DNA of 64,000 bases from Escherichia coli (GCF_003019035.1 NZ_CP027447.1), one strand, 5' to 3'; shown: positions 59,937 through 60,593, counted from the first letter of the stretch. The notes: generated from the sequence alone by a model not told the origin. Numbers and translations are program-made.

Positions 59937-60593
59937 TTAGATTCGGCCGTATTTCGCCAGGCCTTCACGCAGAGAACCAGACTGTATAATCAGTTTGGCC
60001 TGTTCCAGCTCGCGGCTATCAATGGATTGTGCCAGTGCTAATACTTCTGCTGCGACCGCCTGCGGTACGCACACCACGCCGTCGATATCCCCGACAATCA
60101 AATCTCCCGGATTCACCGTGACATCGCCGATGGTGACGGGCTGATTGGCTGAAATTGTTTTGAAACGACCAAGCGTAGTGCCTGGGGTTACCGTTTTGGC
60201 GTAAACCGGGAAATCGTAATCGCGACGGATCTCCGCCAGGTCACGTACGCCGCCGTTCAACACTGCAGCTTCATGTTTATTGGCAACAGCCCCGGCGGTC
60301 ATTAGCCCGCCCCAGACGGCAACGGTTTCCAGCGACGGATTTCCGGTAATGACGATGACCGAACCGCTGGCGGATTCGTCAATGGCGTCCAGCGCATGCT
60401 GCGGTGGCAGTTTTTCGTCAGTGACGTCTTCATAAATGGTGACGGCCGGGCCAACGATTTTTTTGTCGTTGATGCGGTTTTTGATTTCAAAAGGCAGGAA
60501 CATCGTTTTGCCCAAGATCTGATCGCAGGCGTCAGCGACAGAAGCGGTCGAAAAAATAGTGCGAAAACCGTCGATAATATTTTTGCTGTACAT
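59937..60593 (-). CDS. RraA-family (class II aldolase / 4-hydroxy-2-oxoacid aldolase-like) protein
   Basis: ORF 59937..60800 trimmed to the ATG at 60593 (MYSKNIIDGF...), which has AGAGGAAG upstream; roughly 218 aa, the size of RraA/DlpA-fold proteins; family assignment is by fold-level resemblance only. Confidence 0.65.
   Translation of the reverse strand: MYSKNIIDGFRTIFSTASVADACDQILGKTMFLPFEIKNRINDKKIVGPAVTIYEDVTDEKLPPQHALDAIDESASGSVIVITGNPSLETVAVWGGLMTAGAVANKHEAAVLNGGVRDLAEIRRDYDFPVYAKTVTPGTTLGRFKTISANQPVTIGDVTVNPGDLIVGDIDGVVCVPQAVAAEVLALAQSIDSRELEQAKLIIQSGSLREGLAKYGRI

What the first reader, a model, noticed from the sequence alone, without database searches (positions are those of the whole stretch)
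59937..60593. RraA-fold protein occupying the aldolase slot of a sugar-acid cluster
The RraA/MenG-like family includes RNase E inhibitors, 4-hydroxy-4-methyl-2-oxoglutarate aldolases and oxaloacetate decarboxylases. Here a member sits between a KdgK-like kinase and a 2-hydroxyacid dehydrogenase, arguing for a metabolic role, possibly cleaving a phosphorylated 4-hydroxy-2-oxo acid. The ORF track's N-terminal extension (60594..60800) overlaps the 3' end of the dehydrogenase gene and is probably not translated; the ATG at 60593 has a strong ribosome-binding site.
Basis: inference. Interest (0 to 1): 0.55.

Follow-up and report, generated by a model that had tools for sequence, protein, structure and literature searches.

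The report
RraA-fold enzyme in sugar-acid island
A rare E. coli genomic island carries an uncharacterised enzyme of the RraA/HMG-aldolase fold; in many bacteria it sits next to a 2-hydroxyacid dehydrogenase and a KDG-type kinase, and often a genuine Eda aldolase, so it probably makes the keto-deoxy sugar acid rather than splitting it.

Summary
Window 59937-60593 (- strand) encodes a 218-aa RraA-like protein (Pfam E=5.5e-32). The ATG at 60593 is the real start, and the gene lies between a PfkB kinase and a D-2-hydroxyacid dehydrogenase (DH).

The five genes form a 5.4-kb island between ilvC and ppiC, present in 31 of 5426 complete E. coli genomes.

The protein looks catalytic. It keeps the Arg/Asp/Glu/His/Gly active-site residues of HMG/CHA aldolase and gives a confident model of the long RraA-like fold. 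It is far from E. coli RraA.

The "aldolase slot" reading is only partly supported. Orthologues (47-89% identity) occur across Proteobacteria, Firmicutes, Deinococcota, Actinobacteria and Armatimonadota, in a conserved operon of transporter, DH, RraA-like protein and PfkB. Of 40 loci with adequate flanks, 18 also carry a bona fide Eda aldolase, of at least two sequence types. E. coli has a chromosomal eda. No classical sugar-acid dehydratase recurs in the cluster.

I infer that DH plus the RraA-like enzyme fill the step that creates the 2-keto-3-deoxy acid, upstream of Eda. The substrate is unknown and I found no literature on this cluster. It is an uncharacterised variant of a known fold, of moderate interest.

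The parts
59937..60593 (-). RraA-like (PF03737) enzyme gene, 218 aa plus stop. Predicted Mg2+-dependent lyase of the long HMG/CHA-aldolase-like subgroup.
60600..60607 (-). Shine-Dalgarno-like AGAGGAAG upstream of ATG 60593.
   Evidence: read directly from the sequence
60625..61584 (-). D-isomer-specific 2-hydroxyacid dehydrogenase (PGAP name 'C-terminal binding protein'), the usual partner of the RraA-like gene. Stop codon is 31 nt before the RraA start.
58933..59871 (-). PfkB-family sugar-acid kinase. It keeps the YRKGSA and DTN-R-KLW motifs of KDG kinases. An alternative upstream ATG lies at 59904.
61700..63085 (-). MFS transporter of the anion:cation symporter family (D-galactonate transporter-like). 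Most orthologous clusters have a TRAP DctPQM system instead.
58130..58789 (-). GntR/FCD-family regulator. PGAP places the start at 58768.
63162..63407 (.). Three copies of the palindrome (T/A)GACATGTCA (63162, 63303, 63398) in the promoter region upstream of the MFS gene. Candidate operator of the GntR regulator.
   Evidence: Three of the four matches in the 64-kb window lie in this 250-bp stretch.
58046..63440 (.). Whole accessory island, replacing the 86-bp ilvC-ppiC spacer of E. coli K-12.

Best explanation
The gene encodes a catalytically competent, probably trimeric, Mg2+-dependent lyase of the RraA/HMG-CHA-aldolase fold. It works as a usual partner of the adjacent D-2-hydroxyacid dehydrogenase (DH) in a horizontally spread acid-sugar catabolic operon.

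Proposed flow:
1. A carboxylic acid sugar enters through the MFS transporter (a TRAP system in most other bacteria).
2. DH and the RraA-like enzyme together convert it into a KDG-type 2-keto-3-deoxy acid. The kinase may act between them.
3. The PfkB kinase supplies the 6-phosphate.
4. Eda cleaves KDPG to pyruvate and glyceraldehyde-3-phosphate. Eda is encoded in the cluster in many taxa and on the chromosome in E. coli.

Inside the enzyme, the substrate's carboxylate and C2 oxygen chelate a metal held by Asp118 and Glu195' of the neighbouring subunit. Arg117 stabilises the enolate or carbanion. The enzyme then performs a C3-carbanion lyase step, either beta-elimination (dehydration) or beta-decarboxylation. 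This takes the place of the classical sugar-acid dehydratase that the cluster lacks. It is not the terminal aldolase.

Shown: fold, conserved catalytic residues, operon conservation, Eda co-occurrence. Inferred: position in the pathway, type of reaction. Unknown: the substrate.
For: - Fold and active site: Pfam RraA-like, E=5.5e-32. AlphaFold model pLDDT 94.7. TM-scores of 0.78-0.88 to 3K4I, 5IR2, yeast YER010C and HMG/CHA aldolase 3NOJ, but only about 0.6 to the short RraA regulators.
- Catalytic residues: Arg123, Asp124, Glu199', His75 and Gly101 of 3NOJ align with R117, D118, E195, H66 and G95. R117, D118, E195 and G95 are invariant and H66 nearly invariant across 30 orthologues. Residue roles are taken from PMC5065237.
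- Strong constraint: 65-89% identity between Enterobacterales, Vibrio, Alphaproteobacteria and others, with a largely invariant C-terminal tail.
- Context in 40 well-flanked loci: DH in 35, PfkB in 37, TRAP in 32, GntR in 32, Eda in 18.
- The in-cluster Eda proteins fall into two NCBIfam sequence types. All seven tested pass the eda cut-off and none passes the KDPGal-aldolase cut-off.
- eda is present in 5425 of 5426 E. coli genomes.
- No recurrent dehydratase family occurs in the neighbourhoods. Of the five recurrent unlabelled long ORF clusters, the four tested have no family match and lie antisense to real genes.
- The kinase keeps the KDG-kinase motifs containing R105 and R167 of the Thermus enzyme (residue roles from my memory of Ohshima et al. 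2004).
- A paralogous DH-RraA pair sits inside a sugar ABC-transporter operon, so the pair is a recurrent unit.
- Precedent: the RraA-family enzyme FlDet is a sugar-acid dehydratase/decarboxylase that does not cleave KDG or KDPG (PMC8563752).
Against: - No biochemical data exist for any orthologue.
- For an ordinary hexonate, oxidation at C2 followed by C3 deprotonation and loss of the 4-OH gives a 4-deoxy-2,3-diketo acid, not KDG. The simple DH-then-dehydratase scheme therefore needs an unusual substrate or a different order of steps (my own chemical reasoning).
- Direct dehydration of a 2-hydroxy acid would be new chemistry for this fold.
- Every characterised catalytic relative except FlDet is an aldolase/oxaloacetate decarboxylase.
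- The kinase is retained more consistently than Eda (37 versus 18 of 40). This may mean the kinase acts on a pathway-specific intermediate and the RraA-like enzyme acts on a phosphorylated substrate.
- Asp102 of 3NOJ is replaced by an invariant Gly96. Yeast YER010C also has Gly at this position.
Confidence: 0.5

Rival explanations
1. One reading: a class II (metal-dependent) aldolase acting after the kinase. It would cleave a phosphorylated 4-hydroxy-2-oxo acid. One version is 2-keto-6-phospho-aldonate to hydroxypyruvate plus glyceraldehyde-3-phosphate, with DH then reducing hydroxypyruvate to D-glycerate. Another is cleavage of the C4 epimer (KDPGal-type) that Eda handles poorly.
For: - The aldolase catalytic residues are conserved.
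- Characterised long RraA-like proteins are pyruvate aldolases/oxaloacetate decarboxylases (PMC5065237).
- DH resembles glyoxylate/hydroxypyruvate reductases (E=6e-64) and phosphoglycerate dehydrogenase (E=1e-80).
- MFS + PfkB + 2-hydroxyacid DH mirrors the Pseudomonas kguK/kguT/kguD 2-ketogluconate operon (from memory).
- The kinase is retained more consistently than Eda.
- The best kinase model is a bifunctional KDG/KDGal kinase.
- Invariant Lys/Arg residues in the C-terminal tail could bind a phosphate (inference).
Against: - Eda is integrated in the same operon in 18 of 40 loci, in at least two NCBIfam sequence types. Gene orders include DH-Eda-RraA-PfkB and PfkB-Eda with overlapping stop and start codons. 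That is hard to explain if the RraA-like protein were already the pathway's aldolase.
- No glycerate kinase recurs in the cluster.
- The protein scores far below the curated cut-offs of the HMG/CHA aldolase models.
Confidence: 0.25
2. A beta-decarboxylase (oxaloacetate-decarboxylase-like) that pulls the unfavourable DH oxidation forward. DH makes a 2-oxo acid. The RraA-like enzyme tautomerises or decarboxylates it, shortening or de-branching an acidic sugar, for example the alpha-hydroxy-acid end of a 3-deoxy-aldaric acid. The product would be a DKI/DKII-type compound. KduI/KduD-like enzymes would convert that to KDG, which the kinase phosphorylates and Eda cleaves.
For: - Oxaloacetate decarboxylation is a known activity of the family (name of PDB entry 3NOJ; PMC5065237).
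- A KduD-like SDR (best NCBIfam hit KduD, 1e-53; 34% identical to E. coli KduD) and a Cupin_7 protein follow the kinase in 13-14 of 40 loci.
- E. coli has chromosomal kduI-kduD.
- A dehydrogenase paired with a decarboxylase is a common way to drive 2-hydroxyacid oxidation (general biochemistry).
Against: - It requires a C7 or branched acidic sugar.
- The only natural candidate I could name, 3-deoxy-D-lyxo-heptulosaric acid, would by my stereochemical bookkeeping give the galacto (KDGal) series. The in-cluster aldolases are KDPG-type.
- The SDR and cupin are absent from most clusters.
Confidence: 0.15
3. A non-catalytic RraA-type regulator that binds RNase E or a DEAD-box helicase, or that modulates the neighbouring enzymes.
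For: It shares the RraA fold.
Against: - Only a marginal match to E. coli RraA (E=0.0045; 50 bits against a cut-off of 136).
- It is 218 aa with extra terminal helices, against about 161 aa for the regulators.
- The metal-binding and enolate-stabilising residues are conserved (R117, D118, E195 invariant; H66 nearly invariant).
- It is strictly linked to catabolic genes in diverse phyla, many of which lack RNase E.
- E. coli already has rraA (established knowledge).
Confidence: 0.03

Closest known systems
HMG/CHA aldolase / oxaloacetate decarboxylase (LigK/ProA/GalC; PDB 3NOJ)
   Same: - Long RraA-like fold (TM 0.78).
- Conserved Arg123, Asp124, Glu199', His75 and Gly101 equivalents.
- Therefore probably the same Mg2+-bound 2-oxoacid and enolate chemistry.
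   Different: - About 24% identity, and 82 bits against cut-offs of 179-304.
- Asn71 becomes Glu, Asp102 becomes Gly, and Lys147 is not conserved.
- No aromatic meta-cleavage genes nearby. The context is a sugar-acid kinase, a dehydrogenase and Eda.
FlDet, the RraA-family 2-keto-3-deoxy-glucarate dehydratase/decarboxylase of Flavobacterium sp. UMI-01 (PMC8563752)
   Same: An RraA-family enzyme acting on a sugar acid, activated by divalent metal, and doing lyase chemistry other than aldol cleavage. It is the precedent for a non-aldolase role.
   Different: - FlDet feeds alpha-ketoglutarate semialdehyde dehydrogenase, not a kinase and Eda.
- It is about 27 kDa.
Uncharacterised structural-genomics proteins PSPTO_3204 (3K4I) and the metagenomic 'cellulase' 5IR2
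   Same: Closest solved structures: about 30% identity, TM 0.82-0.90. 5IR2 shares the WGG motif.
   Different: Neither has a demonstrated physiological function, and neither has the invariant GLAKYGRI tail.
E. coli RraA (RNase E regulator; 1Q5X)
   Same: Core swivelling beta/beta/alpha fold.
   Different: - 18% identity.
- Covers only the core (TMq 0.6).
- Below the model cut-off.
- A different genomic role.
Classical sugar-acid operons (dgoRKADT, kdgK/eda, kguEKTD)
   Same: Regulator, transporter, KDG-type kinase and an Eda-type aldolase, ending in pyruvate plus glyceraldehyde-3-phosphate.
   Different: The dehydratase (DgoD, UxuA, UxaA or Edd type) is replaced by a 2-hydroxyacid dehydrogenase plus an RraA-like protein.

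Membership tests
Pfam PF03737 RraA-like superfamily | Significant full-length match to the family HMM | tested here: met
   E=5.5e-32, model positions 1-151 of 152. Fold confirmed by AlphaFold plus Foldseek.
HMG/CHA aldolase (LigK/PcmE, TIGR02798 / NF006731) | Score above the curated equivalog cut-off | tested here: not met
   82.7 bits against 304.5, and 81.6 against 179.
HMG/CHA aldolase (LigK/PcmE) | Catalytic Arg123 and metal ligands Asp124 and Glu199' | tested here: met
   R117, D118 and E195 align with them and are invariant in 30 orthologues. Residue roles from PMC5065237.
HMG/CHA aldolase (LigK/PcmE) | Second-shell Asp102 and pocket residues Asn71 and Lys147 | tested here: not met
   G96 (invariant), E60, and G142/R143 at the aligned positions. 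The role of Asp102 is from memory of Wang et al. 2010.
HMG/CHA aldolase (LigK/PcmE) | Genomic context of the protocatechuate 4,5-cleavage or gallate pathway | tested here: not met
   Neighbours are a transporter, a 2-hydroxyacid DH, PfkB, Eda and GntR.
HMG/CHA aldolase (LigK/PcmE) | Retro-aldol and oxaloacetate decarboxylase activity | not testable with these tools
   Needs an enzyme assay.
RraA RNase E regulator (NF006875, TIGR02998) | Score above cut-off, about 160 aa in length, binding to RNase E | tested here: not met
   50.3 bits against 136. TIGR02998 gave no hit at E<=0.001. The protein is 218 aa. The binding property is not testable here.
NCBIfam NF004850 (PRK06201), the best-scoring RraA-like subfamily | Score above the curated cut-off | tested here: not met
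   112.5 bits against 231. No curated model covers this orthologous group.
KDPG/KHG aldolase (Eda, PF01081) | Homology to the class I TIM-barrel aldolase | tested here: not met
   No PF01081 or TIGR01182 match for the RraA-like protein. Genuine Eda genes are separate ORFs in orthologous clusters.
FlDet-type sugar-acid dehydratase/decarboxylase | Sequence relationship to FlDet and activity on 2-keto-3-deoxy-glucarate | not tested
   The FlDet sequence is not held as text. The context differs: no alpha-ketoglutarate semialdehyde dehydrogenase.

The most novel reading that the evidence does not exclude
The DH plus RraA-like pair is a previously unrecognised two-enzyme replacement for the classical sugar-acid dehydratase. 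The RraA fold would catalyse a new lyase reaction (dehydration or tautomerisation-decarboxylation). This would define a widespread, undescribed catabolic pathway for an as yet unidentified acid sugar, feeding KDG kinase and Eda in marine, plant-associated and gut bacteria.
Probability: 0.35. Interest if true: 0.7.

Novelty: new variant of a known kind. Interest (0 to 1): 0.48.

Why it matters
RraA-like proteins are routinely mis-annotated as a methyltransferase, an RNase E regulator or HMG aldolase, and few have an assigned reaction.

This orthologous group is highly constrained and occurs in many phyla. It is embedded in a conserved operon whose other parts are interpretable, which makes it a tractable target for function discovery.

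Identifying the substrate would add a carbon source to the accessory metabolism of some E. coli lineages and of marine, plant-associated and rumen bacteria. It might also add a new reaction type to the RraA fold. If the protein is only another pyruvate aldolase, the gain is limited to better annotation.

Tried and rejected
- Literature: six full-text searches on RraA with KDG, KdgK, TRAP, 2-hydroxyacid dehydrogenase or the PGAP product names found nothing about this cluster. Only the FlDet and HMG/CHA aldolase papers were useful. The GapMind paper and a 2026 L-threonate dehydrogenase paper do not mention it. The EFI TRAP ligand paper is not held, and a TRAP review lacks the PDB codes.
- Transporter ligand: the TRAP binding proteins of orthologous clusters have only distant solved relatives (best is 4P47, E=1e-55 to 1e-64). 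No ligand could be transferred.
- Periplasmic MRJP/SGL propeller: only an uncharacterised structure (2QE8) and insect yellow/MRJP proteins match it. Its function stays open.
- Recurrent long 'families' in high-GC loci (497, 567, 381, 379 and 250 aa): no family hits, and they lie antisense to real genes. I treated them as artefacts, not hidden dehydratases.
- Substrate hypotheses considered and set aside on chemical or stereochemical grounds (my reasoning, not tool results):
  - Ordinary hexonates via 2-keto intermediates, which would give 4-deoxy products.
  - Hexuronates and DKI/DEHU, because DH acts next to a carboxylate.
  - 2,3-diketogulonate or ascorbate, which belong to the L-series.
  - Kdo and 3-deoxy-lyxo-heptulosaric acid, which would give the galacto series.
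  - Tetronates and pantoate, which leave no role for Eda.
- Fusion proteins: a Pel9A-like beta-helix + RraA protein, a RidA + RraA protein and tandem RraA proteins. Each rests on one or very few sequences, and the one context examined was uninformative.
- Promoter and terminator scans were not above chance.

Full report
**Observation**

The window is E. coli DNA (ilvE-ilvD-ilvA-ilvY-ilvC ... ppiC). Between ilvC and ppiC, five co-directional genes lie on the - strand:
- a GntR/FCD regulator (58130-58789)
- a PfkB kinase (58933-59871/59904)
- the RraA-like ORF (59937-60593)
- a D-isomer 2-hydroxyacid dehydrogenase, DH (60625-61584)
- an ACS-family MFS transporter (61700-63085)

The sequence is 100% identical to E. 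coli SCU-301.

Alignment with K-12 shows that the 5.4-kb block (58046-63440) replaces the 86-bp ilvC-ppiC spacer. The full block is present in only 31 of 5426 complete E. coli genomes.

The longest ORF (TTG 60800) runs into the DH gene. However, all close homologues are 216-219 aa and align from Met1, and AGAGGAAG precedes ATG 60593.

**What the protein is**

Pfam gives RraA-like, E=5.5e-32. No curated NCBIfam model claims it. The best hit is PRK06201 at 112 bits against a cut-off of 231. The HMG/CHA aldolase models score about 82 bits against cut-offs of 179-304. RraA proper scores 50 against 136.

The closest solved proteins by sequence are:
- the uncharacterised 5IR2 and 3K4I
- HMG/CHA aldolase 3NOJ (E=1.5e-11)
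- E. coli RraA, which is marginal (E=0.0045)

An AlphaFold model built on 30 orthologues is confident (pLDDT 94.7, pTM 0.90). It superposes on the long RraA-like proteins 3K4I, 5IR2, YER010C, 3NOJ and RraAS2 with TM 0.77-0.88. The short regulators cover only the core, at TM about 0.6.

A profile alignment to 3NOJ reproduces the published residue numbers (Arg40, Asn71, His75). I used that to validate the mapping:

| 3NOJ residue | Role | Residue here |
|---|---|---|
| Arg123 | essential, stabilises the enolate | R117 |
| Asp124 | metal ligand | D118 |
| Glu199' | metal ligand from the neighbouring subunit | E195 |
| His75 | pocket | H66 |
| Gly101 | pocket | G95 |

Roles are from PMC5065237. 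R117, D118, E195 and G95 are invariant and H66 nearly invariant in the orthologue alignment.

Differences are Asn71 to Glu60, Asp102 to invariant Gly96 (yeast YER010C also has Gly-Gly here), and loss of Lys147. The last eight residues, GLAKYGRI, are almost invariant from E. coli to Alphaproteobacteria.

**Comparative context, the decisive evidence**

The orthologous group is strongly constrained. Identity is 65-89% across Pantoea, Atlantibacter, Rouxiella, Lonepinella, Vibrio, Photobacterium, Succinatimonas, Pseudovibrio, Rhizobium, Roseibium and Sulfitobacter.

A scan of species-representative genomes added Betaproteobacteria, Deltaproteobacteria, Bacillota, Trueperaceae, Actinobacteria and Armatimonadota.

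I mapped reference proteins onto 56 loci. Forty of these have at least 6 kb and 4 kb of flank. The number of those 40 loci carrying each component:

| Component | Loci (of 40) |
|---|---|
| PfkB kinase | 37 |
| 2-hydroxyacid DH | 35 |
| TRAP DctPQM system | 32 |
| GntR regulator | 32 |
| Eda-family aldolase | 18 |
| MRJP/SGL six-bladed propeller | 18 |
| KduD-like SDR | 14 |
| Cupin_7 protein | 13 |

An MFS transporter replaces TRAP in E. coli, Pantoea and Paraburkholderia. The propeller carries an N-terminal signal-peptide-like sequence in nearly all orthologues.

Typical gene orders are:
- GntR | DctPQM | DH-RraA-PfkB-Eda-propeller in Vibrio. The kinase stop and the Eda start overlap.
- DH-Eda-RraA-PfkB in Firmicutes and several Proteobacteria.
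- DH-RraA-propeller-PfkB-SDR-cupin in roseobacters.

The in-cluster Eda proteins fall into two NCBIfam sequence types: a canonical PRK05718 type and a divergent type. All seven tested exceed the TIGR01182 eda cut-off. None reaches the KDPGal-aldolase cut-off.

eda itself is present in 5425 of 5426 E. coli genomes.

Clustering of all neighbouring ORFs found no recurrent member of any classical dehydratase family. Four of the five recurrent unlabelled long ORF clusters were tested and have no family match; all lie antisense to real genes, and I treated them as artefacts.

A paralogous DH-RraA pair (38% and 34% identity) sits inside a CUT2 sugar ABC-transporter operon in Pararobbsia. The pair therefore recurs as a unit.

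**Interpretation**

The kinase's closest solved relatives are KDG kinases. It keeps the YRKGSA and DTN-R-KLW motifs, which contain the two arginines that I recall as binding the KDG carboxylate in the Thermus enzyme.

With Eda as a repeatedly recruited member, the pathway most likely ends KDG to KDPG to pyruvate plus glyceraldehyde-3-phosphate.

The aldolase slot is therefore filled, in cis in many taxa and in trans in E. coli. The slot filled by no known family is the one that creates the 2-keto-3-deoxy acid. I assign DH plus the RraA-like enzyme to that step.

The RraA-like enzyme would use Mg2+/Arg-stabilised carbanion chemistry for a beta-elimination or a beta-decarboxylation. The only sugar-acid RraA-family enzyme characterised so far, FlDet, is exactly such a dehydratase/decarboxylase, and it does not touch KDG or KDPG (PMC8563752).

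I give this reading 0.5. Its weakness is chemical. For an ordinary hexonate, 2-oxidation followed by C3 deprotonation leads to a 4-deoxy product, not to KDG. So the true substrate, or the order of steps, must be unusual. One possibility is kinase first, with the RraA-like enzyme acting on a phosphorylated acid. I could not identify the substrate.

**Rivals**

Variants include 2-keto-6-phospho-aldonate to hydroxypyruvate plus glyceraldehyde-3-phosphate, or cleavage of the KDPGal epimer. It fits the family's known chemistry, the more consistent retention of the kinase, and the kgu-like gene set. It leaves the integrated Eda unexplained.
- Oxidative decarboxylation feeding KduI/KduD-like enzymes: 0.15. 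It explains the SDR and cupin accessories and the chromosomal kduID of E. coli. It needs an exotic C7 or branched acid.
- RNase E-type regulator: 0.03. The evidence is effectively against it.

**Novelty**

I found no publication on this cluster. The fold and the general chemistry are known. The pairing with a 2-hydroxyacid dehydrogenase in the dehydratase position of a KDG/Eda operon appears undescribed.

I rate it a new variant of a known kind, interest about 0.5. It is a good, tractable target for enzyme-function discovery, but not a surprise at the level of a new system.

Noticed in passing
window 63162-63171, 63303-63312, 63398-63407: Three copies of the palindrome (T/A)GACATGTCA lie within 250 bp upstream of the MFS gene. 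The whole 64-kb window has only one other match. The third copy overlaps a promoter-like -35 hexamer. This is a plausible operator for the island's GntR regulator.
   Followed up: partly
window 58046-63440: The five-gene island exactly replaces the 86-bp ilvC-ppiC spacer of K-12. No flanking direct repeats, integrase or tRNA were seen. A GC-rich hairpin at about 58063-58095 separates ilvC from the convergent GntR gene.
   Followed up: partly
window 59871 vs 59904; 63037/63085/63103; 58768 vs 58789: Start codons of the kinase, MFS and GntR genes are ambiguous. The longest ORFs are 11, 6 and 7 codons longer than the PGAP calls, and the MFS gene also has an in-frame ATG at 63037.
   Followed up: no
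L003 10362-11552; L014 10720-11910; L002 3666-4904: A periplasmic (signal peptide) MRJP/'yellow'-family six-bladed propeller is part of about half of the orthologous clusters but is absent from the E. coli island. It may be a lactonase or another periplasmic pre-processing enzyme. Its only solved relatives are the uncharacterised 2QE8 and insect MRJP / dopachrome-conversion enzymes.
   Followed up: partly
L014 12872-13588 and 13599-14129 (also L015, L019-L021, L030, L046): A KduD-like SDR (34% identical to E. coli KduD) and a 176-aa Cupin_7 protein follow the kinase in 13-14 of 40 clusters. They are reminiscent of a KduD/KduI or DEHU-reductase/KdgF pair.
   Followed up: partly
L023 1387-3060: A second, paralogous 2-hydroxyacid DH + RraA-like pair is embedded between the permease and ATPase genes of a CUT2 monosaccharide ABC transporter, 7.6 kb from the orthologous cluster.
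   Followed up: partly
L061 6768-9440 (protein P0139); proteins P0244, P0125: Unusual architectures occur among relatives. P0139 is an 890-aa secreted protein with a Pel9A-like beta-helix and a C-terminal RraA-like domain. P0244 has an N-terminal extension that looks like RidA/YjgF (by eye, not scanned) fused to an RraA-like domain. P0125 is a tandem RraA-RraA protein. Each is a single representative sequence in the 50%-identity library and could be a gene-calling fusion.
   Followed up: partly
L016, L024, L025, L028, L017 (high-GC loci): Long conserved antisense ORFs (250-567 aa) overlap the real TRAP, DH, RraA and kinase genes. They cluster as if they were families but have no family matches, so they are artefacts of GC-rich coding DNA.
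   Followed up: yes
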